From positions 1-18,625 of the forward strand of contig JALUEE010000014.1 in the NCBI GenBank assembly GCA_027053075.1: DNA of 18,625 nucleotides. Reading direction: 5' to 3'. The position numbers and the translations under genes were made by a program. Below, one piece after another: positions 1 through 10,133 of this stretch (position 1 is its first letter; each line of letters opens with the position of its first letter). Under the pieces are notes generated by a model that saw only the letters and a list, made by a program, of their open reading frames with translations, was not told where the DNA came from and did not search any database. The stretch comes from a candidate division WOR-3 bacterium (GTDB lineage Bacteria > Hydrothermota > Hydrothermia > B15-G9 > WFZT01).

Positions 1-126
1 AAGGGCTATGATTGCCGAAAAGATCAGCCCTATCAGAACCTCCTGCGACTTAAAAGTGGAGGTCAAAAACAACCACAGGATAAAGAGTACTAAAGTTGTA
101 AATATAAAACGACTCAGTTTACCCAT
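1..126 (-). CDS. mrpE: Na+/H+ antiporter subunit E-like protein (MrpE/MnhE; MbhA/MbxA-type), 5' part only, truncated by window edge
   Basis: Not in ORF track. ATG at 126-124 preceded by AGGAG. Translates MGKLSRFIFTTLVLFILWLFLTSTFKSQEVLIGLIFSAIIAL, matching the MrpE N-terminal pattern (LFxxWLxLT...QExxxG). Confidence 0.75.
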   Translation of the reverse strand, partial: MGKLSRFIFTTLVLFILWLFLTSTFKSQEVLIGLIFSAIIAL

Positions 127-160
127 ATTTCACTCCTTTTAGAGAGAGCATTGGTCGAAA

Positions 161-190
161 ATTATATTGAGCCGACTCTGAAAATGTCAA
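161..190 (-). promoter_or_regulatory. sigma70-type promoter for the mrpE-like gene
   Basis: Minus strand TTGACA (190-185), 18-bp spacer, TATAAT (166-161), 35 nt upstream of the ATG. Confidence 0.75.
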
Positions 191-284
191 AAAAGTCAAG
201 AACTTATGGGAATTTATGTCATAAATTTGATAAAATAAGAAGAAACTAACATGGAAAAACATTGAATCTTAGATTTTAATGAAA

Positions 285-1031
285 TTATTTAATGGGGATT
301 CTCAACGATGTTACAGGCTTAACTATTACTCCCGTTATTTCCGCAAGTTTTTCTACAGTTTCAATAAATTCTTTCAATCCCTGAGGTGATTGCGCATTAA
401 CAACAATACTCACATCACTCACCCCGGTAGTAAAGTTGATGTCCATAACCTTAAAATTACTACTCAAATTAGTATTTGGGAGTAGTGCAAGGAGCTTAAA
501 GAAACCTTTAACTCCGTACTCTTGATTCCATGGTAATGTATTTTTGACATATTTTTCAAACCTGAATAATTCTTTCATTTTGCCCAATGTTGCTTTGTAT
601 CTATGAATGTAAAATTTGTTATCTACATTTATCTCAGGTTTTTCTCGGTTTTTTAACTCCTCCGTCCCAATTTTCATAATTATGATATCATCTTCGCTAA
701 TCCTAATCCTTTCTTTGGGTACTTGAATTGATATATCAATCTTGCCTGTTGATCCCATAAGATTCAAAAACACTTTTTTCCCGCAAACGTCAAACACAAC
801 CTTTCCATTCAAATTTCTTTTGTGAGATTCAATGTAAAATAGTTGTGGATCCGGGTTGCACTTAACCACAGTGTCTTTTGATACTGATAATTCAACTTTT
901 CGATAACCATCAGAAACAGGTGTATCATAAAAATAACAATTCATAAATAAGTCTCTGTACTTATTTAAATCAACATAGAACTCATCCTTTCCAACTACGT
1001 ATAATCTCGTCAGAAAATCTATATTAGACAT
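285..1031 (-). CDS. hypothetical protein (248 aa) with possible C-terminal Lrp/AsnC ligand-binding (RAM)-like domain
   Basis: Long ORF whose start overlaps the stop of the 811-aa gene by 8 nt. C-terminal VMDINFTTGVSDVSIVVNAQSPQGLKEFIETVEKLAEITGVIVKPVTSL resembles the AsnC pattern vtG-D-v-a-s-l-fi-i-GV-T. Confidence 0.8.
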   Translation of the reverse strand: MSNIDFLTRLYVVGKDEFYVDLNKYRDLFMNCYFYDTPVSDGYRKVELSVSKDTVVKCNPDPQLFYIESHKRNLNGKVVFDVCGKKVFLNLMGSTGKIDISIQVPKERIRISEDDIIIMKIGTEELKNREKPEINVDNKFYIHRYKATLGKMKELFRFEKYVKNTLPWNQEYGVKGFFKLLALLPNTNLSSNFKVMDINFTTGVSDVSIVVNAQSPQGLKEFIETVEKLAEITGVIVKPVTSLRIPIK

Positions 1032-3459
1032 TACTTCCCCTATTATGATGTTCGAAATATTCGAAAGGAATCAATATATATGTGTCGGATCTATTTACAT
1101 ATTCAAATAATTTAATGAACTTATTGAATTTTTTTAGGCTTTCCCAATTTGTTATCAAGAGAAATGATATATTGGGCCATGAAGAACTTCTAAGGCATAA
1201 GTGTTTCTTTATCTTCATCACGCTATCAGACCCATTCCCCATCCCAAGCAGAATTCTTTTTATCTCTTCAAGCACTCTTTGACCTTCAGATGATGGAAAA
1301 TGCGAATCATACCTCATTCTTATCCATAATAATATATCATCCGATGATATCGCATTCAAAAACTCCTCCAGTTTCGTTATCTTTGTGGAATTTACTATTT
1401 CTTTTACATCTACAATGATATTCTCTGAATATAAAGTCCAATATTTGTCGGTCAAAAATTTGGTCCCTTCCTCACCTCTTTTACGCTTTATATTTTCGTC
1501 GATCTTTCTACATTTTGATTTTTCTATAACCTTACTTCTGAATAATAGTTCATCAATTGCTTCATGATGTCCTATAAAAAATAGTGAGTAATGGCCAAGG
1601 GACCAAAATATTTTGAAATCTCCCGTACCTTGTTTCTTTATAAATTTGCTATCTAATGGGAATCTTGATAAGTAATGTTGAGCATCTATTGCTAAGATAC
1701 TCAGTAATTCAAAATTTCTGAAAAATTTCCTATCCTTATTGATATGATCGGATTCGGCGTATCTGTTCAAATCAACATTTTCATCAAAAGTATGTATAAC
1801 ACGAGATATTTTTGAATTAATATTAATGTGCTGTTGAAAATACTCCTCAAGCTCATTACAATCAATCCTATTTTTTTTGTTATTATAATTTTCCTTCTTT
1901 TTGCTACAATTCTCTAAATAATTTACTCTTTGGTACATTCTATCAAAAAAGATACCAAATGCTACTAGCGGAAAGAGAGCCTTTGCGAATCTCCTATCTA
2001 TTTTATTTTCAATTAATTCTTCTTTATTTTTAATTAATTCTTCAACAACTTCCAATGCAATGTTTGTGTGGATAATTTCCAGATTCTTAAGTTCATCAAT
2101 CAACCTGATGATAGTACTCTCATTATTCCTTTTACTTTGAATAATGTCAAATGCAAAAAGATTAAAAGAATTTTCTAAATCTTTTATTGGATGCTTATCA
2201 ATTTTAAATGTTTCTCCGAACAATTCTGCCACTTTATAACTTACAAGTTTTGCCGAAGTTTGAATTCCATCGTAAACAAATTCAGCTGATACACTCGGTC
2301 TAGAAAAAGTTGTTTTGATTATCTGATATAATATCTCGCTTTCATAATAAATGTCTTCTTTAAACTTTTTTAAATTTTTACAATCCTCTCCCTTACAGTT
2401 ATCCGGCATATCTTTAAACACATCAATTAGAACTCTAAATCTCAATATCTCTTTAAATCTGGAAAAGTCCAGCTCATTATAAGAAAGCTTAGACGGAGCC
2501 CTTGGGTCATTCCCCATTGGAGAAAAATCCTGATGGGCTAAACCAGATGAAATCTTAGGATTTAACAGAATTGATAAAACGAAGTATACATAATAGTAAA
2601 TTCCTCCATATAGAAACCCCACGATATCAGCAAGGATTTCGTTAGTAATACTTTTACTGAAGTAATACGTAAACCCTCCCACAGCTCCAAGGTGAAGCTC
2701 TATGATTTCTAAAAGTTGACTGTACAAAGAATCTAACAGTCTATATAATTTCCTTAATTTCGGCAGCCTTTCGGGTATCTGAGAGTTGATAATAAGTATC
2801 TCTGCTAACTCGTGATACAGGGAAACAGACTGCTGGAACCAAAACAAGTTCCACACTGGTAAAGAAATTTCCGAGAATATTTTCTCGGAATCCTGTTCTC
2901 CTAATTTAATACTGGGATTGGCCTTTGCAGATATTATCTGTTCCCATGTTAGTAGAAGGTCGAATCTCCCGTATGGTAGGACCTCCATTACATTTTCGAC
3001 TATTTCTCTCCACAGTGCACTTGTCTTAATTGCGCTCATTCTCGCGAACCGTCTTGGAATTAGTGGAAACAATGCAAGGGAGTCTATTCTACGATCTAAA
3101 AATCTATGCACTGTCTGTATATCTTTAAATGTGGTATAAATTAAAAAATTTGATTCAGCAATTTGATCTAAATAACGGGCCTTTTGGGAGTAAAAATCAT
3201 CCCCAAGATTTTTTTCAATATCATTACTCATGTTTTCTATGCTCCCACGTAATTGTTCCCACTCGGAAAGCCTTTTCTCGACTAACCTTATAACATCAAA
3301 TGAGGAAGCTCTTTTGGGGATAGCCCCTGGAAACGCATAAAGATAGTTAAAAAGGGATTCCAGATAAGATAACCTGAGTATCACTTCATTAGTTGTTCTT
3401 TTTAAGAACCACGTTGAAGTGTATGGTATATATAACATCCCCTCTTTTGAATTTTGCAT
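1024..3459 (-). CDS. hypothetical protein (811 aa); N-terminal zincin-like region with degenerate HExxH, C-terminal ferredoxin/RAM-like segments
   Basis: 2.4-kb ORF with AAGGAG RBS. Contains ISLPVW...LYHELAE (H216) and NEILADIVGFLYGG (E274), FWSLGHYSLFFI, and terminal ESLKKFNKFIKLFEYVNRSDTYILIP. The CDS is solid; the domain call is by eye. Confidence 0.85.
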   Translation of the reverse strand: MQNSKEGMLYIPYTSTWFLKRTTNEVILRLSYLESLFNYLYAFPGAIPKRASSFDVIRLVEKRLSEWEQLRGSIENMSNDIEKNLGDDFYSQKARYLDQIAESNFLIYTTFKDIQTVHRFLDRRIDSLALFPLIPRRFARMSAIKTSALWREIVENVMEVLPYGRFDLLLTWEQIISAKANPSIKLGEQDSEKIFSEISLPVWNLFWFQQSVSLYHELAEILIINSQIPERLPKLRKLYRLLDSLYSQLLEIIELHLGAVGGFTYYFSKSITNEILADIVGFLYGGIYYYVYFVLSILLNPKISSGLAHQDFSPMGNDPRAPSKLSYNELDFSRFKEILRFRVLIDVFKDMPDNCKGEDCKNLKKFKEDIYYESEILYQIIKTTFSRPSVSAEFVYDGIQTSAKLVSYKVAELFGETFKIDKHPIKDLENSFNLFAFDIIQSKRNNESTIIRLIDELKNLEIIHTNIALEVVEELIKNKEELIENKIDRRFAKALFPLVAFGIFFDRMYQRVNYLENCSKKKENYNNKKNRIDCNELEEYFQQHININSKISRVIHTFDENVDLNRYAESDHINKDRKFFRNFELLSILAIDAQHYLSRFPLDSKFIKKQGTGDFKIFWSLGHYSLFFIGHHEAIDELLFRSKVIEKSKCRKIDENIKRKRGEEGTKFLTDKYWTLYSENIIVDVKEIVNSTKITKLEEFLNAISSDDILLWIRMRYDSHFPSSEGQRVLEEIKRILLGMGNGSDSVMKIKKHLCLRSSSWPNISFLLITNWESLKKFNKFIKLFEYVNRSDTYILIPFEYFEHHNRGSNV

Positions 3460-3486
3460 AAATCAAACTCCTTTAATAATTAACCA

Positions 3487-4272
3487 TCAAAAGTAATAAA
3501 AAAGGTGTTGAATGTTGTCCACAAAAAACAATTTCAAAAGATGCCAATATTCCTGTATCGATCTAAGTAAAATCTTTAAATGTTTAAAAGAAACTACCAT
3601 TAACAAAATAGATATTATCATAAAATATATTTGCTTAATAAAATATACACGAGGCCCCATTTCTGATAATAACTGGGACAAATACTTTTCGTTAAGTATG
3701 TCCTTATATAACAACTTATGGAATGAGTTATTACTCAATTCTTCAATATTCATAGATTTAGGAAGTTCTAAGACCTTTATGATATCTTTTGGCTTTCTAA
3801 ATCGTACAAAATACCATGAATCAAATAAATGTGAGATATGTTTTATTATAAGAAAGATACCGTCATGTAAAAACATGCGGTTCATTAAGTCATAAGATTT
3901 CATAACTACAATTATAACCCGATTTTTGTTCTCCTTAACCCTTGGATCTTCAATAGAAAATATTATCCAGGGAGATCTAACAATAGGAGGGACCTTGACA
4001 CGATAGTGAAGAACCAGGTTTAAAACAGATCTGGACTGCACACATGTAAAATACATTCTTGGCAAACCTACTACCTCTACGGGGTTTGAGGAAACATGAA
4101 TTCCACGCACGATCACTGCGGTCAGAAATATTGACCGCACTTTGCGAAGAATCAAATCTTTCGGTATATAATCTTCTACACTACGCTCAATTTCTTTTGG
4201 CAAAAAATAAACAGTTATACCTGTCTCATCTAATGAATTTAAATTCTGTGGAGGATATTTAAGGTACTCCAT
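3487..4272 (-). CDS. hypothetical protein (~261 aa) with a C-terminal hydrophobic helix
   Basis: Long ORF in AT-rich DNA filling the gap between two co-oriented genes. ATG at 4272 (alternative TTG at 4278), 10 nt after the upstream stop. Hydrophobic segment IYFMIISILLMVVSF. Confidence 0.7.
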   Translation of the reverse strand: MEYLKYPPQNLNSLDETGITVYFLPKEIERSVEDYIPKDLILRKVRSIFLTAVIVRGIHVSSNPVEVVGLPRMYFTCVQSRSVLNLVLHYRVKVPPIVRSPWIIFSIEDPRVKENKNRVIIVVMKSYDLMNRMFLHDGIFLIIKHISHLFDSWYFVRFRKPKDIIKVLELPKSMNIEELSNNSFHKLLYKDILNEKYLSQLLSEMGPRVYFIKQIYFMIISILLMVVSFKHLKILLRSIQEYWHLLKLFFVDNIQHLFYYF

Positions 4273-4282
4273 TGGCAACTTT

Positions 4283-4768
4283 TCATTCTATATCAAATCC
4301 TGAAACGCCAATACTGGCCTGTTGCCCCGGTGATAACAAAAGCGACAATCCAAAAGTCTCTCTCAAATTAATTGATTTGAGAACTGAAGTATTGTGTGCA
4401 ATCCTTCTCGATAAACCATCAATTTTAACTTGCATATTTCTCTTTACATCCTGTAGCTCATTAGATAAATCGTCTATCCTGTACTGCATTTTTTGCATGT
4501 CACTCTTTATAAACCGCACCTCTTCCGACAGTGCTTCTATTCTACTTAGCAAATCTGTCTTCATTTCCTGCATTTTATCTGATAAATCCTTCATCCTGCC
4601 TTGCAAATCTGTCTTCATTTCCTGCATTTCATCAGACAAAGTATACATCCTGCCTTGCATTTTTTGCATGTTCTGTGAGAGGTTGTTTATTGCATTCAGG
4701 ATAGAGCTAAATTTCTGATCCAGAAGCTCCTCTTGAGATCTCCTCTCACTGTCCTTGCTTTTAGACAT
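4283..4768 (-). CDS. coiled-coil protein with 18-residue repeats (161 aa)
   Basis: AAGGAGG RBS before ATG 4768. Repeats QGRMYTLSDEMQEMKTDL / QGRMKDLSDKMQEMKTDL / LSRIEALSEEVRFIKSDM / QYRIDDLSNELQDVKRNM. Confidence 0.85.
   Translation of the reverse strand: MSKSKDSERRSQEELLDQKFSSILNAINNLSQNMQKMQGRMYTLSDEMQEMKTDLQGRMKDLSDKMQEMKTDLLSRIEALSEEVRFIKSDMQKMQYRIDDLSNELQDVKRNMQVKIDGLSRRIAHNTSVLKSINLRETFGLSLLLSPGQQASIGVSGFDIE
4549..4659. repeat. intragenic 54-bp tandem duplication (2 copies)
   Basis: GCAAATCTGTCTTCATTTCCTGCATTT is identical at 4549-4575 and 4603-4629. CATCCTGCCTTGCA also recurs at a 54-bp offset. Confidence 0.9.
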
Positions 4769-5593
4769 TTATTACCTCCTTTTTAGCTAATCATGTTCAT
4801 ATGTATCCACAAATCCAAGCATACATACTTAGAAAAATCACCCTTCAAGACTATCCATTGAGTGATTGGGCCAAGTTACCAAATTATATTCATCCGAACA
4901 ACCTGTTGTGCATAAATCAGTGCCCTGTTTTAACAAAGAACAGGTTATCCTTTTGTCCCCCACATTTCTCGCTATATATACGTACACTGACTCATCTAAC
5001 ATGTCTATTTTAATTAAGATATTCGTAAATTATTTCTAATATATTGAGATTGTTTTGCCACTTCGCTTATTCCTTTTGCTAATTTCTTACATGTTTCACT
5101 ATCCAATCTTCTTTTATACACGTAGCTACTCTAATATCATTATTCATCATCCCATCATTTAATTTCATAGTTTACAGAATACTCGAATTGCCCAAGAAGA
5201 CGGCCCTTCTCTGCTTATTTTCCTGTATGAATACTCCCTAATATGCCTTTTTAGATTCACCCCGCTATAATTCCTCATAATATCTTGAACATACGTTTGA
5301 ATATTGTATAGTGTTATTTACTCTAAATGTCAAGATTTCGATCTTCCCCCAAATCCTCAGCTAAGGAAAATTTTGGTCTCGATCAGGCCATCCTGATGCT
5401 TATCTCCACACCCTCTCTACCATCTTCACTGGATTACACCTTTTCCTTCACTATTTTTATCCACTCATCTCCCTCATCTCTCCTTTCCCTTCGTACACCT
5501 ATCCCATCTTCTTTGTAGTAGAACCAATCGATATGTGTCACACGTCGTCTCGGGTGTTAGAATAATTTTGTGTAAGGAGTACAATATAATACT

Positions 5594-5618
5594 CCCCCAG
5601 GTCCGTAGGACCTGGGGG
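5594..5618. repeat. perfect 11-bp GC-rich inverted repeat (hairpin)
   Basis: CCCCCAGGTCC-GTA-GGACCTGGGGG, followed by CAAAAA. Could act as a minus-strand terminator or be IS-end structure. Confidence 0.7.
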
Positions 5619-5718
5619 CAAAAATTACATCATAAGGAGGTTTGTCCCGTCCTGATATATGTTTACAGTACAACAGTCACCATGGATGATTATAAAACTT
5701 TTAAAGGAGGTCACTTTT

Positions 5719-6120
5719 ATGCCTAATAACAACAAAAATTACACCGAAGCCCTAAAACTTAAGGTTATTAGAGAATTCGAGGCCGGCGCCTCTATTGGTC
5801 ATTTACGCAGAAAATACGGAATCGGTGGTAATTCCACTATTCAAAAATGGATAAATAAATACAGTCACAAGGCTCCAAAAACATCAAAAATTAAAACAGA
5901 CAACCAGGAACAAGTGGAAAGGTTAAAAGAGAGAATAGCTCAACTTGAGAAGGCTGTATTGAATCTAACAGTAGAGAAGCTGGTTCTTGAGAGCACATTA
6001 GAGGTGTATGAGGAAGAGTATGGAGCGAGATTAGGTCAAAAAAAGAACGCAGATCATCGAGAAGGCGAAGCAGAAAGGAAAGGGAGAGAAAATAAAGATG
6101 GGAGCTATATGCAGAGTTAA
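5719..6120 (+). CDS. IS3-family transposase OrfA (HTH plus leucine-zipper-like coiled coil)
   Basis: AAGGAGG (5704-5710) before ATG 5719. YTEALKLKVIREFEAGASIGHLRRKYGIGGNSTIQKWINKY is an IS3-type HTH. Confidence 0.9.
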   Translation: MPNNNKNYTEALKLKVIREFEAGASIGHLRRKYGIGGNSTIQKWINKYSHKAPKTSKIKTDNQEQVERLKERIAQLEKAVLNLTVEKLVLESTLEVYEEEYGARLGQKKNADHREGEAERKGRENKDGSYMQS

Positions 6121-6949
6121 AGGTATAAGTCGGCAGGCGCATTATCAGAAGAGGCGCAGAGAGGAGGGCAAGAGGGCAGAGGAAGAGAAGATATTAACGA
6201 TGGTAAGGATGATACGAAGGCGGCATCCATATGTGGGGGTGAGGAAATTACTTGTGAAGATGAAACCGATGATGGATCAGGAGGGTATAAAAATAGGTAG
6301 GGACAGGTTATTTGAGCTGATGAGGGCGAATGATTTACTTGTGAAGAGAAGGAGGCGTAAGAACAGGACGACGTGGCCAGGGATGAAGCGGATGTCGAAC
6401 CTATTGGTGGGAGAGGTGATAGACAGGCCGAACAAGGTGTGGGTAGCGGATATAACCTACATAGAGATGGGTGGTGGTGGATTCAGATATCTGTTTATAG
6501 TGATGGACTTATACAGCAGGAAGGTAGTGGGGTGGAGTTTGGGCAAGACACTGGAATGGGGTAACGCGTTGGCAGCATTGGAGATGGCAGTGGAGAATGC
6601 AGGGGGTGAGGTGAAGGGGCTAATACATCACAGCGATCATGGCAGTCAATACACTAGCAGGGGGTATTTGGAGTATTTGAGTAGAAATGGTATGAGGGCA
6701 AGCATGGGTGAAGTTGGGGATGCATACGACAATGCGTACGCGGAGAGGGTGGTGGGGACGTTAAAGAGGGAATACGGATTGGGGGAAGTATTCAAGAGTG
6801 GGATAGAGGTAGCGGTGGGAGAAGCGATAGAGTTGTACAATGAGGAGAGGCCGCATCAATCGTTGGGGTATGCGACGCCGAGCGAGGTGTATAGAGGGGA
6901 AGTAGAGATAGAGGGATTTAAGGTGAAGATAGGGGGTAGAACATGCTGA
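6098..6949 (+). CDS. IS3-family transposase OrfB (integrase-like DDE domain); frame is open from 6035
   Basis: Motifs PNKVWVADITYI, HHSDHGSQY, DNAYAERVVGTLKREY, YNEERPHQSLGYATP. Confidence 0.95.
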   Translation: MGAICRVKGISRQAHYQKRRREEGKRAEEEKILTMVRMIRRRHPYVGVRKLLVKMKPMMDQEGIKIGRDRLFELMRANDLLVKRRRRKNRTTWPGMKRMSNLLVGEVIDRPNKVWVADITYIEMGGGGFRYLFIVMDLYSRKVVGWSLGKTLEWGNALAALEMAVENAGGEVKGLIHHSDHGSQYTSRGYLEYLSRNGMRASMGEVGDAYDNAYAERVVGTLKREYGLGEVFKSGIEVAVGEAIELYNEERPHQSLGYATPSEVYRGEVEIEGFKVKIGGRTC

Positions 6950-7086
6950 GGGGAGTCCCCCTTTTAAGTGTCAACATATTTCAGGACTTGACAGTGAAAT
7001 TTCCTAAAAATTTAATGGCACATAATTCCTCAAACACATTTCCACTAAACTGATCTTGTTCGAAAATTCCTCCCCCTCCTCTCCTC

Positions 7087-7113
7087 CCCCCCACGCACTT
7101 TGTGCGTGGGGGG
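7087..7113. repeat. 12-bp GC-rich palindrome adjacent to the IS110 insertion site
   Basis: CCCCCCACGCAC-TTT-GTGCGTGGGGGG. Confidence 0.75.
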
Positions 7114-7293
7114 AGATAACAATAATGTTTGTCAAGATTGACAACAACAGTATCATAAAATTTGATATCGTTATTATTGTAAAACTTTGATGCCACTGCC
7201 TTCTATGGTCTTTGTGATTTTTGACAATATTATGCCCCTCTCTAACCTGCTATCAAGCTGGACAAAATCTGAATTTTTTTCTTTCCTTCCCGC

Positions 7294-8589
7294 CTAAAAT
7301 ATGTTTATATCTATCTCATCACTTTCCGTTGGACGTTGTGCCCTTGTCTCCACCCCCGCCATCTCCATCCTTCTCATCGCCATCTCTTCTCCCCTCCTTA
7401 TACCTTCCATCGCCTTCTCCAAACTCCACTCCTCTCCGCTAACCGCTATCGCATACACTATCTCCGCTAATTTCCTCGCTACCGCCCCTCCCGCTGCCCT
7501 CTTGCTCTTACCACGCCTCAATAACCTCTCATAATACGCCCTTATCTGCGGATTCGTCCTCCTCGCACTCACACCCGCTAGCAAAAATGCCATCTTCAAC
7601 ATCCTGTTCCCCTTGTTCGTCATCTTCCCCCTCCTTCGCATATCACCACTCTCCCACACCGTAGGATACAACCCACAATACCCCACAAATTTCTTCTTGC
7701 TCCTGAACCTCCGCTTTATGTCCCCTGCCTCCGCTATTATCACTCCCGCTGTCACCCAGCCTATCCCCGGTATGCTCGTTATCTTGCACTCCGAATAGTA
7801 TTCCTCAACTATCTCCTTCACTTCCCTGTCTATCTCCTTTATCACTCCATCGATCTCCAATATCTGCCTCACTATTGTCTTTATTATCAGCATCTCCGCC
7901 TCTCTTAATTCCTGTATCGGTGCACTCCTCGCTACCTCCATTACCTTCCTGACTATGCTCCTCCTTATTTTCTGCCTACCAACCCTTATCTTCATTAATT
8001 CCTCTTCCCCAGCTCCCAGTATTAAATGGGGTGATGGAAATCTCTGGAGTATGTAAAGAAAACCAAGAGGCAACCCACTCTTCACCAGAATCCTGTATCC
8101 AGGGAAATAAATTCTCAGTATGTGGTACAATTGATTCTTTAAAGAGGCCTTGTTCTCTATGAAGGTACGTCTTGTGCGAACAAGATGACGCAGGCGTTGG
8201 AGGAAGAGGGGAACGTGATAGTCTCCCTGAGGTTTGATAGTGGCCAGGTAGCGGGCTATAATTTGAGCATCGATACGGTCGGTTTTGGCACTGACGTTGA
8301 GTGCTTTAGCGAAGTAACGGACGGATGCGGGATTGAGTTGATGTACTTCAATGTTATCCATGGCTTCGAGGGTGTGTAGGATACCGATATGGAAGTCACC
8401 GGTAGATTCGAGGCCGCAGACGATTTTATAGTTTTTGGAGAGTGAGGAGATGAGTTGGGAGAACTCATGCCAGCCATCAGGGGTATTAGGGTATTTAGCG
8501 GAGGATATGACGGGGTGTAAATTATCATCGAAGAAGGAGGCGAATAGTTCTTTTGAGCTTACGTCTATACCAACGTATAAAGTATCCAT
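7294..8589 (-). CDS. IS110-family transposase/recombinase (DEDD RuvC-like domain plus Tnp domain)
   Basis: AGGAGG RBS. YVGIDVS, GLESTG and KTDRIDA supply DEDD. SIPGIG and YCGLYPTVWESG carry the conserved serine. Confidence 0.96.
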   Translation of the reverse strand: MDTLYVGIDVSSKELFASFFDDNLHPVISSAKYPNTPDGWHEFSQLISSLSKNYKIVCGLESTGDFHIGILHTLEAMDNIEVHQLNPASVRYFAKALNVSAKTDRIDAQIIARYLATIKPQGDYHVPLFLQRLRHLVRTRRTFIENKASLKNQLYHILRIYFPGYRILVKSGLPLGFLYILQRFPSPHLILGAGEEELMKIRVGRQKIRRSIVRKVMEVARSAPIQELREAEMLIIKTIVRQILEIDGVIKEIDREVKEIVEEYYSECKITSIPGIGWVTAGVIIAEAGDIKRRFRSKKKFVGYCGLYPTVWESGDMRRRGKMTNKGNRMLKMAFLLAGVSARRTNPQIRAYYERLLRRGKSKRAAGGAVARKLAEIVYAIAVSGEEWSLEKAMEGIRRGEEMAMRRMEMAGVETRAQRPTESDEIDINIF

Positions 8590-8613
8590 AATGCACCTCC
8601 TGTTTTTTTTATT

Positions 8614-8793
8614 GGGAGGAGATGGAGAGTGGGAGCCTCCACCGAATGGGGTATAGCCTAACCTTCTGAATGGAGTGATTTTTTACACGAATAACAATCC
8701 AGGCTTATACCCCAGGTGGAGGGACCAATCTCCCCCTCGGGGTCATGCCCCAGGACCAAGGCCGGTCTCCACCCACTCATACCATCTCCTCCC
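8614..8793 (-). ncRNA. putative IS110 bridge RNA (two internal loops within a closing stem)
   Basis: Nested complementary segments: 8614-8625/8782-8793 (12 bp), 8627-8633/8772-8778, 8636-8643/8715-8722, 8647-8655/8706-8714, 8656-8659/8701-8704, 8723-8726/8764-8767, 8739-8742/8748-8751. Loop segments match the element's junction sequences. Confidence 0.78.
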
Positions 8794-8928
8794 GAAGTGT
8801 TTTCCCTATATTTTTAGTGATAACCATCATAAATAACAACAAACATTATAGAAGGAACAAGGTGGGGGGTAAATTTTTCCTCAAAAATCAAAGAATTTGA
8901 GATTTTTTCAAACAGGCTCTCACTAAAC

Positions 8929-8957
8929 TTGACTCTAATGGTGATATTTGTTATTAT
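8929..8957 (+). promoter_or_regulatory. upstream sigma70-type promoter for the ArsR gene
   Basis: TTGACT (8929-8934), 17 bp, TATTAT (8952-8957), with an extended -10 TG at 8949-8950. Confidence 0.55.
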
Positions 8958-8999
8958 AGCTCCCACAACTTTTTCATTGCATTTATTAAAAAACAAACT

Positions 9000-9029
9000 A
9001 TTGACATTAAGTCTAATGGCAATTAAAAT
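9000..9029 (+). promoter_or_regulatory. sigma70-type promoter overlapped by a candidate ArsR operator
   Basis: TTGACA (9001-9006), 17 bp, TAAAAT (9024-9029). Inverted repeat ATTGACATTA-AGTC-TAATGGCAAT (9000-9023, 1 mismatch). Confidence 0.7.
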
Positions 9030-9038
9030 ATTTTCGCT

Positions 9039-9380
9039 ATGAAAGAAAAGAAATTCTGTGAAGAGTCATACGTGGTTGAGCCCCTCGAGGAGTTCTTCAG
9101 CGCGCTCTCCTCTGTAAAAAGATTGCAGGTGGTTTACCTTCTCAAAACCGGTGAGAAAAACGTGAAAGAACTTATGTCATGCATGAACATTGATCAGTCC
9201 TCTTTATCGAGGCACCTAAATATTCTTAAAAAAGCGGGAATTCTGAAAGTGAGGAGAGAAGGGACACTCACTTATTACAGGCTTTCTGACCCTCGGGTAG
9301 TGGACATCATCCAGACCGGACTCAAAATTGTGATAAAGATTAAAGAAGAGGAGATGACGAGGCTTACCTCACTCCAGTAG
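9039..9380 (+). CDS. ArsR/SmtB-family transcriptional regulator
   Basis: FFSALSSVKRLQVVYLL...QSSLSRHLNILKKAGILKVRREGTLTYYRLSD winged-HTH signature. Confidence 0.93.
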   Translation: MKEKKFCEESYVVEPLEEFFSALSSVKRLQVVYLLKTGEKNVKELMSCMNIDQSSLSRHLNILKKAGILKVRREGTLTYYRLSDPRVVDIIQTGLKIVIKIKEEEMTRLTSLQ

Positions 9381-10133
9381 GGGCTCGATGTAAATCCGGT
9401 CGCCATCTAAGACAAGGTGAACGTGGAATACATCTCTAAATAAATCCTCTCTAAAGACTGTACTACTCTCTCCTGATTTTACAATCCTCCCCTTGTTCAA
9501 AACCAGCGTTCGATTCCCATATCTGTAAGCGAGGTCAAACTCATGCATGATGGTAATAATTGTCCTACCCTGTTCATTTAATCTTTCAAGAAGCTCCATG
9601 ATTTCGAACCTGTGTTCATAATCCAGGTGGGATGTCGGTTCATCAAGCAAAATGTACGATGATTCCTGTGCAAGCACACGGGCAATTCTCACCCTTTGCA
9701 TTTCACCTGACGAAAGGGCTCCGAGCATTTTATCCTTAAAATCAACCGTTCCCGTCGAGCGAAGGGCATTATAAACTATTTCTTTATCCCTTATTGTGAG
9801 CCTTCCCGAAGGCCCCACGTGAACAAATCTGCCCAGTGCAACGTAATCCGCCACCCTAATTGACTTCTCAACTATATCAGTTTGAAGTAAAACAGCTACG
9901 TCTCGGGCGATGTCCCTGACATCCATCTTCCTTACATCTTTCCCATCTATCTTCACAGCCCCCGCAAGAATTTTCGTTCTCTTTAATAAAGTTTTAAAAA
10001 TTGTTGACTTGCCGGCTCCGTTAGGACCTATGATGTTCCAGAATTCCCCCTCGTTAACCCGCCAGCTGAAGCCCTCGAGCACAACCCTGCCGTTTTCATA
10101 TGCCACGCTTAAATTCTCAAATTCCAGAGCCAT
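9369..10133 (-). CDS. ABC transporter ATP-binding protein (iron-siderophore/cobalamin type, FhuC/BtuD-like)
   Basis: Walker A GPNGAGKST, signature LSSGEMQR, Walker B ILLDEPTSHLD, H-loop IMHE. Confidence 0.93.
   Translation of the reverse strand: MALEFENLSVAYENGRVVLEGFSWRVNEGEFWNIIGPNGAGKSTIFKTLLKRTKILAGAVKIDGKDVRKMDVRDIARDVAVLLQTDIVEKSIRVADYVALGRFVHVGPSGRLTIRDKEIVYNALRSTGTVDFKDKMLGALSSGEMQRVRIARVLAQESSYILLDEPTSHLDYEHRFEIMELLERLNEQGRTIITIMHEFDLAYRYGNRTLVLNKGRIVKSGESSTVFREDLFRDVFHVHLVLDGDRIYIEPLLE

What the first reader, a model, noticed from the sequence alone, without database searches (positions are those of the whole stretch)
285..4768. Unassigned AT-rich four-gene operon: repeat coiled coil, membrane protein, zincin-like/RAM protein and RAM protein
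Seen: four co-oriented genes with gaps of 10, 27 and -8 nt, clear RBSs on genes 1 and 3, visibly more AT-rich than the housekeeping genes after 9 kb, sitting between an mrpE-like promoter and an IS cluster. I recognise none as a named family. Inference: a horizontally acquired module combining a possible sensor or scaffold (coiled coil), a membrane component, a large peptidase-fold protein and small-molecule-binding RAM-like domains. That architecture fits an undescribed defence/conflict or signalling system. Function is not demonstrated.
Basis: partly seen in the sequence, partly recalled or inferred. Interest (0 to 1): 0.78.

Follow-up and report, generated by a model that had tools for sequence, protein, structure and literature searches.

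The report
Orphan protease-like and sensor gene island
Four unfamiliar genes sit on a foreign DNA insertion that some strains of a hydrothermal-vent bacterium carry and others lack; three of them travel together and likely encode a metabolite-gated metal enzyme with a small-molecule sensor and a membrane anchor, possibly for anti-virus defence, which is untested.

Summary
The four genes, their gaps (10, 27, -8 nt) and the AT-richness are real: GC is 0.33 against 0.44 for the genome. They lie on a strain-variable insertion between an mrpE/mbh promoter and arsR. A relative 99% identical over window 1-233 has the empty site, and vent metagenomes hold both alleles. Genes 2-4 match no Pfam, NCBIfam or PADLOC family, and those scanned (genes 2-4) no PHROG. 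Gene 4 ends in a likely RAM (Lrp ligand-binding) domain, supported weakly by several methods. Gene 3 is conserved and has a gluzincin-like site with a changed ligand set (H-E-x-x-E...E-x-x-A-D, 4 of 4 sequences). No profile or fold search confirmed the zincin fold, and an HD-type hydrolase is a rival. Its proposed RAM tail was not confirmed and is missing from its three distant homologues. Gene 2 has one C-terminal hydrophobic segment. Gene 1 is an 18-residue-repeat coiled coil, and nothing links it to the others beyond position. Linkage 2-3-4 is seen only among close alleles. Best reading (0.35): a ligand-gated metallohydrolase defence/conflict module. It is a real, very rare and undescribed combination with no functional evidence.

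The parts
4283..4768 (-). Gene 1, 161 aa: coiled coil of about five 18-residue repeats; possibly a passenger
   Evidence: Identity at lag 18 is 26 of 87, against 9-11 at lags 7, 11, 14, 21 and 36. Only generic sub-threshold coiled-coil hits, best DUF1664 at 29.5 bits vs cut-off 34.6. Not found in 40 relatives.
3487..4272 (-). Gene 2, 261 aa: soluble domain of unknown fold with one C-terminal hydrophobic segment (likely membrane anchor)
   Evidence: Hydropathy peak 2.17 at residues 211-229 of the 263-aa form. Homologues only at 86-87% identity. No family hit.
1024..3459 (-). Gene 3, 811 aa: N-terminal helical bundle (1-130), very conserved block (118-154), putative metal site H216-E217-x-x-E220 ... 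E274-x-x-A-D278, helical middle, and a 240-aa tail with an unconfirmed ferredoxin-like repeat
   Evidence: Alignment of 4 sequences at 31-35% identity to gene 3. Bundle from the AF2 model and VIA search. 13 of 16 listed variant codons are synonymous.
285..1031 (-). Gene 4, 248 aa: unassigned N-terminal half and a C-terminal ferredoxin-like, likely RAM domain (139-248)
   Evidence: VIA match to 2zbc STS042, Z 8.4, rmsd 2.5, 75 aligned, 25% identity, on a low-confidence model. phmmer top hit 2zbc, E 0.46. Home-built RAM HMM gives 10.5 bits, reached by 0 of 500 shuffles.
233..234 (.). Left junction of the insertion, upstream of the mrpE/mbhA promoter
   Evidence: G037 matches window 1-233 at 99%, then 320 bp, then window 8905-9399. 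Loose ends at 233 in runs X2, X3 and X7 resemble that empty allele; X3 record 9 (187-756) bridges the filled junction.
161..190 (-). Perfect sigma-70 consensus promoter of the downstream mrp/mbh operon, outside the insertion
   Evidence: 12 of 12 match; also present in the empty allele.
4883..4912 (-). Candidate promoter for the four-gene unit (weak)
   Evidence: 10 of 12 match. The region's 26 sites do not exceed the shuffle mean of 24.8, so this is a candidate only.
5546..8904 (.). IS3-type element and IS110 element that obscure the right end of the insertion
   Evidence: Pfam rve, HTH_28, DEDD_Tnp_IS110 and Transposase_20; multi-copy in the genome.

Best explanation
Genes 2-4 lie on a horizontally acquired, strain-variable insertion and likely form a conflict (defence-type) module in which gene 3 is predicted to be a cytoplasmic metal-dependent peptide hydrolase of gluzincin type, likely switched by the RAM domain of gene 4 and likely held at the membrane by gene 2. 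In this reading His216, Glu220 and Glu274 bind the metal and Glu217 is the general base: the second His of HExxH is replaced by another metal ligand rather than lost (inferred). RAM domains change oligomer state on binding amino acids or related metabolites (PMC2995911). Gene 4, perhaps with the tail of gene 3, would keep the enzyme off until a metabolite or infection signal changes. The enzyme would then cut a host or invader target, in the manner of the Lit protease (Lit's mechanism recalled). Gene 1 may be a scaffold or an unrelated passenger. Shown: the insertion, co-orientation and tight spacing, the linkage in close alleles, constraint on gene 3, and the motif. Inferred: fold of gene 3, activity, binding between the proteins, ligand and defence role.
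For: Insertion and low GC. Gene 3 not found in 271 other genomes of the phylum. Contigs from two other studies bridge genes 4-3 (X2 r1, X3 r10, X4 r19; X7 r26 with an unaligned middle) and genes 3-2 (X2 r8). H216, E217, E220, E274 and D278 are invariant in 4 of 4 sequences at 31-35% identity to gene 3, where about a quarter of columns are invariant. The spacing from H to ExxAD is 58, within the 55-84 seen in 28 of 29 M48 sequences. The ExxAD helix is what hhalign pairs with M48 (P 0.017-0.028; control windows 0.10-0.60). Atlas: 0.93 to 30 unnamed clusters, nearest named clusters U49/M48 at 0.76-0.77. RAM in gene 4.
Against: HExxH itself is not met (HExxE; HEVPE with a proline in two homologues). 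hhalign probability is only 1.7-2.7% and no Pfam zincin hit appeared. The AF2 model has pLDDT below 50 over the motif region and gave no zincin match. The Atlas recognition value (2245) is under its 2300 mark. No PADLOC hit for genes 2-4. The only other features on the insertion are IS elements, with no known defence genes. The three distant homologues lack the C-terminal ~240 aa. Genes 2 and 4 have no distant homologues. In gene 2 only 2 of 9 listed variant codons are synonymous. Linkage among close alleles can be plain co-inheritance.
Confidence: 0.35

Rival explanations
1. The insertion is a string of orphan genes carried together without one shared function; gene 3 is a real conserved protein, and genes 1, 2 and perhaps 4 are passengers.
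For: Only close alleles show linkage. Genes 2 and 4 have no homologue below 86% identity while gene 3 has three at 31-35%. Gene 2 shows no synonymous excess in the listed subset. An IS end is joined into gene 3 at 3119 in run X7.
Against: Genes 3 and 4 overlap by 8 nt. The 4-3 order holds in a contig only about 77% identical over 1055-1460 (X7 r26). The listed indels inside genes 3 and 4 come in +1/-1 pairs that keep the frame.
Confidence: 0.25
2. Gene 3 is a catalytically dead zincin used as a peptide- or protein-binding scaffold in a signalling module read out through RAM domains.
For: The second His is lost in 4 of 4 sequences. The most conserved part is the Arg-rich block 118-154 (31 of 40 invariant in 121-160), not the metal motif (16 of 40 in 201-240). 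An earlier, unchecked scan note describes a 'decayed' zincin with small sensor domains.
Against: Three potential ligands, the general-base Glu and the ExxAD Asp are all kept, which decay would not favour (inference).
Confidence: 0.2
3. Gene 3 is an HD-superfamily (YfbR/HD_3-like) phosphohydrolase with HE for HD, acting on nucleotides; it would deplete or degrade them under RAM control.
For: HD_3 proteins read EH...HDxxE...AxD. Gene-3 homologues read WEH...HExxE...AD, with 34 residues between the two His in P0006. hhalign pairs the HExxE helix with HDxxE (P 0.086).
Against: The upstream His is Gln in the window's protein. The segment between the two His looks like two beta-strands rather than helices (read from the sequence). 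The M48 pairing scored better, and no Pfam HD hit appeared at E up to 10.
Confidence: 0.12
4. The unit is an accessory metabolic regulator of the co-oriented mrp/mbh operon just downstream.
For: Same strand, no terminator-like site listed between gene 4 and the mrpE promoter, and a RAM domain.
Against: The operon keeps its own 12/12 promoter and lacks the unit in G037. The three other congeners with mrpE have different genes upstream.
Confidence: 0.08

Closest known systems
Gluzincin metallopeptidases of clan MA: M48 (HtpX type, PF01435) and U49 (E. coli Lit cell-death peptidase, PF10463)
   Same: An H-E helix followed about 58 residues later by E-x-x-A-D; nearest named clusters in the Atlas feature search.
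   Different: HExxE instead of HExxH, no profile match, no run of transmembrane helices, an N-terminal helical bundle and a 240-aa tail; 811 aa against about 300.
Stand-alone RAM proteins and Lrp/AsnC ligand-binding domains (STS042 2zbc, TTHA0845 2djw, DM1; PF01037)
   Same: Ferredoxin-like C-terminal domain of gene 4 with T-G-V-S-D at the G-x-[YF]-D position.
   Different: Below the Pfam cut-off (12.4 vs 25 bits). Fused to a ~135-aa unassigned N-terminal half rather than an HTH, and coupled to an enzyme-like gene.
YfbR/HD_3 phosphohydrolases (PF13023)
   Same: EH...H[DE]xxE...AD pattern with similar spacing in 3 of 4 gene-3 sequences.
   Different: No HD dyad, upstream His missing in the window's protein, no profile match.
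Zincin-like MPTases of polyvalent proteins (PMC5512222)
   Same: Conflict-associated zincins with variant active-site motifs.
   Different: Those are domains of large phage or plasmid proteins with HEXXH or HEXXXH; the passages seen mention no RAM partner.

Membership tests
Gluzincin (M48/U49-type) metallopeptidase, gene 3 | HExxH motif | tested here: not met
   HELAE, HELTE, HEVPE, HEVPE in 4 of 4 sequences.
Gluzincin (M48/U49-type) metallopeptidase, gene 3 | Third-ligand Glu on a later helix (ExxAD) | tested here: met
   E274-x-x-A-D278 invariant in 4 of 4; spacing 58 vs 55-84 in 28 of 29 M48 sequences.
Gluzincin (M48/U49-type) metallopeptidase, gene 3 | Profile match to a zincin family | tested here: not met
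   No Pfam or NCBIfam zincin hit; hhalign probability 1.7-2.7% to M48, 0.2% to Lit.
Gluzincin (M48/U49-type) metallopeptidase, gene 3 | Zincin fold (three-stranded sheet plus two helices) | tested here: inconclusive
   Model pLDDT below 50 for residues 122-238; the fold searches were driven by residues 1-136.
Gluzincin (M48/U49-type) metallopeptidase, gene 3 | Metal-dependent proteolysis | not testable with these tools
   Needs an assay.
RAM (Lrp/AsnC ligand-binding) domain, gene 4 | Ferredoxin-like alpha/beta sandwich | tested here: met
   Residues 139-248; VIA Z 8.4 to 2zbc, tied with other ferredoxin-like folds; model pLDDT about 50 in that part.
RAM (Lrp/AsnC ligand-binding) domain, gene 4 | Sequence match to RAM | tested here: inconclusive
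   Pfam PF01037 12.4 bits vs cut-off 25; home-built HMM 10.5 and 12.2 bits, 0 of 500 shuffles reach 10.5.
RAM (Lrp/AsnC ligand-binding) domain, gene 3 tail | RAM sequence or fold in residues 575-811 | tested here: inconclusive
   No HMM score. The model there has pLDDT 20-43 with a beta-alpha...beta-alpha-beta order at 711-796.
RAM (Lrp/AsnC ligand-binding) domain | Amino-acid-dependent oligomerisation | not testable with these tools
   Needs biochemistry.
Lrp/AsnC transcription factor, gene 4 | N-terminal HTH | tested here: not met
   No Pfam hit at E up to 10 on the N-terminal 127 residues.
HD_3/YfbR phosphohydrolase, gene 3 | HD dyad with an upstream His | tested here: not met
   HE in 4 of 4; upstream His in 3 of 4; hhalign P 0.086 against a profile of only 4 sequences.
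Described anti-phage systems (PADLOC 2.0) | Component profile hits in a system's arrangement | tested here: not met
   0 hits for genes 2-4 at E up to 1; gene 1 has only generic coiled-coil hits.

The most novel reading that the evidence does not exclude
A new class of metabolite-gated defence system. A zincin-fold hydrolase with a His/Glu/Glu metal site is switched by Lrp-type RAM oligomers and anchored at the membrane, so the cell senses infection as a change in amino-acid or nucleotide pools and triggers proteolytic arrest. This locus would be a thermophile offshoot of a wide unnamed superfamily (30 Pfam-less Atlas clusters).
Probability: 0.2. Interest if true: 0.8.

Novelty: new variant of a known kind. 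Interest (0 to 1): 0.47.

Why it matters
RAM domains are known as amino-acid sensors of transcription factors, and the role of stand-alone ones was called unclear in the 2010 review read here (PMC2995911). A RAM protein wired to a hydrolase on a mobile island would extend feast/famine sensing to enzyme switching or immunity. An active HExxE site would widen the motif used to recognise zincins. The module is small, heat-adapted by habitat and naturally present/absent between strains, so it is easy to test. Its rarity limits comparative support.

Tried and rejected
- Gene 3 relatives: HMMER over 1.84 billion representatives with the 4-sequence profile returned 3 proteins, all already in the alignment. 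DNA-pattern scans confirmed no relative in genome, metagenome or viral contigs; the same held for gene 2 in metagenome contigs.
- Plasmid and phage tblastn: nothing real. The Sinorhizobium hit (E 0.1) falls in a large repeat-protein region with no matching ORF and was rejected as chance.
- Phylum searches with genes 2 and 4: only weak partial hits, E 7e-4 to 9e-3, 3 of 5 and 4 of 5... i.e. 3 and 4 non-self hits, several with stops; not followed up.
- U49 search of 272 genomes: rang nowhere, controls included, so it is uninformative.
- Weak PF01037 hits in longer ORFs: ordinary Lrp regulators in 3 of 3 loci read.
- Recalled lead that zincin+RAM genes pair with uracil phosphoribosyltransferase: not confirmed in 5 of 95 plasmid loci read.
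- Complex prediction, gene-3 tail with gene-4 RAM: no answer, score 0.00, partner fold uncertain; not evidence either way.
- Gene 1: no cover from 4371 to 4750 in the four runs laid; not evidence of absence.
- Expression: no RNA holder listed.
- No Rfam match. No terminal repeats or target-site duplication found at the junctions.
- Neighbours of the three distant gene-3 homologues could not be read.
Full report
Observation. The four minus-strand ORFs exist at the stated coordinates, with gaps of 10, 27 and -8 nt when gene 2 starts at the ATG at 4272. The protein collection also calls it at 261 aa. Genes 1 and 3 have clear AGGAG(G) sites. GC is 0.332 against 0.439 for the genome, and 1 of 2,013 sliding windows is as low. 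No paralogue of any of the four exists in the genome. Downstream is MnhE/MrpE, heading a long co-oriented antiporter/hydrogenase-type operon. Upstream are an IS3-type and an IS110 element, then arsR.

The unit is an insertion. Of five congener genomes, four have mrpE. G037 matches window 1-233 at 99% and window 8905-9399 at 96%, with 320 bp between, so window 234-8904 is absent there. The other three have unrelated genes upstream of mrpE. Four public runs from two studies other than the possible source were laid (X3 and X7 are labelled hydrothermal vent; X2 and X4 carry no label). Loose ends at 233 in X2, X3 and X7 resemble the G037 empty allele, and X3 record 9 bridges the filled junction. 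Both alleles therefore exist. The contigs with the empty junction are deeper (36 and 185 against 4-27 for the listed island contigs), but the tool warns that depth is no share of cells. The right end is hidden by the IS elements, and no integrase, terminal repeat or target duplication was found. Gene 3 was found in 0 of 271 other genomes of the phylum, and gene 1 in 0 of 40 relatives.

Linkage and selection. Contigs bridge genes 4-3 in X2, X3 and X4, and in X7 with an unaligned middle; one X2 contig bridges genes 3-2 (238 further records were not shown). These are close alleles, about 77-100% identical, so this shows co-inheritance rather than deep conservation. I classed 36 of the 40 listed substitutions (566 were not shown; 2 lie outside the genes and 2 sit in a gap alignment). 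Synonymous sites were 13 of 17 in gene 3, 3 of 7 in gene 4 and 3 of 12 in gene 2. By codon, counting two changes in one Arg codon together, that is 13 of 16, 3 of 6 and 2 of 9. Gene 3 is constrained; gene 2 is not visibly so in this biased subset, although its homologues at 86-87% identity keep the frame. An IS end is joined into gene 3 at 3119 in X7, so broken alleles also occur.

Gene 3. It has no meaningful hit in Pfam, NCBIfam, PADLOC, PHROGs or PDB sequences. Three homologues of 599-602 aa align at 31-35% identity over residues 1-570 and lack the last ~240 residues. An exhaustive HMMER search found no others. Invariant residues include H216-E217-x-x-E220 and E274-x-x-A-D278. By PMC5512222 (passages read), zincins carry HEXXH on one helix and a Glu ligand on the next, with variant motifs known. 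Here the second His is Glu in 4 of 4 sequences. The spacing of 58 fits M48 (55-84 in 28 of 29 sequences). hhalign pairs the ExxAD helix with M48 at P 0.017-0.028 but only 1.7-2.7% probability, with control windows at 0.10-0.60. The Atlas places the protein at 0.93 (184-190 shared features) near 30 clusters without Pfam names, with U49/M48 the nearest named (0.76-0.77), but its recognition value is under the mark. The AF2 model (mean pLDDT 41.8) supports only an N-terminal helical bundle and is unreliable over the motif. An HD_3-like reading of the same motif scored P 0.086. The most conserved part is the Arg-rich block at 118-154, which none of my readings explains. PMC7215534 (passages read) writes HEXXE for fungal M35 proteases. 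M35 is usually given as HEXXH (recalled), so I do not count it as a precedent.

Gene 4. It has one homologue at 88% identity. Residues 139-248 model as a ferredoxin-like domain. The stand-alone RAM protein STS042 is the top natural VIA match (Z 8.4, rmsd 2.5, 75 aligned, 25% identity), tied with several Lrp proteins and other ferredoxin-like folds. It is also the top phmmer hit (E 0.46). The Atlas lead is RAM at 0.76, and a RAM HMM built from 30 sequences of this phylum scores 10.5 bits, reached by 0 of 500 shuffles. Each line is weak, but they agree. The N-terminal half has no assignment and no HTH hit. PMC2995911 (passages read) describes RAM oligomerisation, amino-acid and 2-oxoglutarate effectors, and hetero-octamers.

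Genes 1 and 2. Gene 2 has a single hydrophobic segment near its C-terminus and no fold lead; it was not modelled. Gene 1 is an 18-residue-repeat coiled coil with generic hits only.

Mechanism. I commit, at 0.35, to a ligand-gated metallohydrolase module with a conflict role: gene 3 as enzyme, gene 4 as sensor and brake, gene 2 as anchor. The conflict role is inferred from mobility, patchiness and the likeness to Lit-type peptidases; no call tests it. Rivals are passengers (0.25), a dead-zincin signalling scaffold (0.2), an HD-like nucleotidase (0.12) and an mrp/mbh regulator (0.08).

Literature. Eight full-text searches listed no paper describing a zincin-plus-RAM system. Papers other than the three named were seen as listings and abstract openings only. 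Supplements were not read, and the library lacks most subscription papers. One unchecked scan note (e1-9579591) describes an analogous AT-rich operon with a decayed zincin and three small sensor domains, paired elsewhere with TIR domains. I could not test whether it is the same family; sequence look-ups with P0003 and P0007 found nothing.

Verdict. This is a real, very rare insertion with an undescribed domain combination, built from known kinds of parts, with weak fold evidence and no functional evidence.

Noticed in passing
window 3119 and 5635 (run X7): A contig joins the IS end at 5635 to position 3119 inside gene 3, within its most conserved block; probably an IS-disrupted allele.
   Followed up: no
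window 564-1055 (run X7 record 26): One allele keeps the gene-4 RAM part and the gene-3 tail but has 491 unaligned letters over the N-terminal half of gene 4, which suggests a swapped or fast-evolving domain.
   Followed up: no
window 7050-7115 and 8853-8919: Two halves of a multi-copy intergenic repeat flank the IS110 element; a related ~300-bp repeat fills the empty site in G037.
   Followed up: partly
window 5552-5642: A 91-bp IS-end segment, 100% identical at many contig ends; the IS3-type ORFs 5659-6120 and 6098-6949 overlap in different frames.
   Followed up: no
G000 genome-wide and the phylum: G000 has no PF01037 match over the cut-off, while 105 of 272 genomes of the phylum do, mostly as small stand-alone RAM ORFs of 75-130 aa, often in tandem pairs.
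   Followed up: no
L091:5974-7841 (Acuticoccus plasmid): A divergent upp is translationally coupled to a 404-aa unannotated repeat protein next to toxin-antitoxin pairs; unrelated to this locus.
   Followed up: partly
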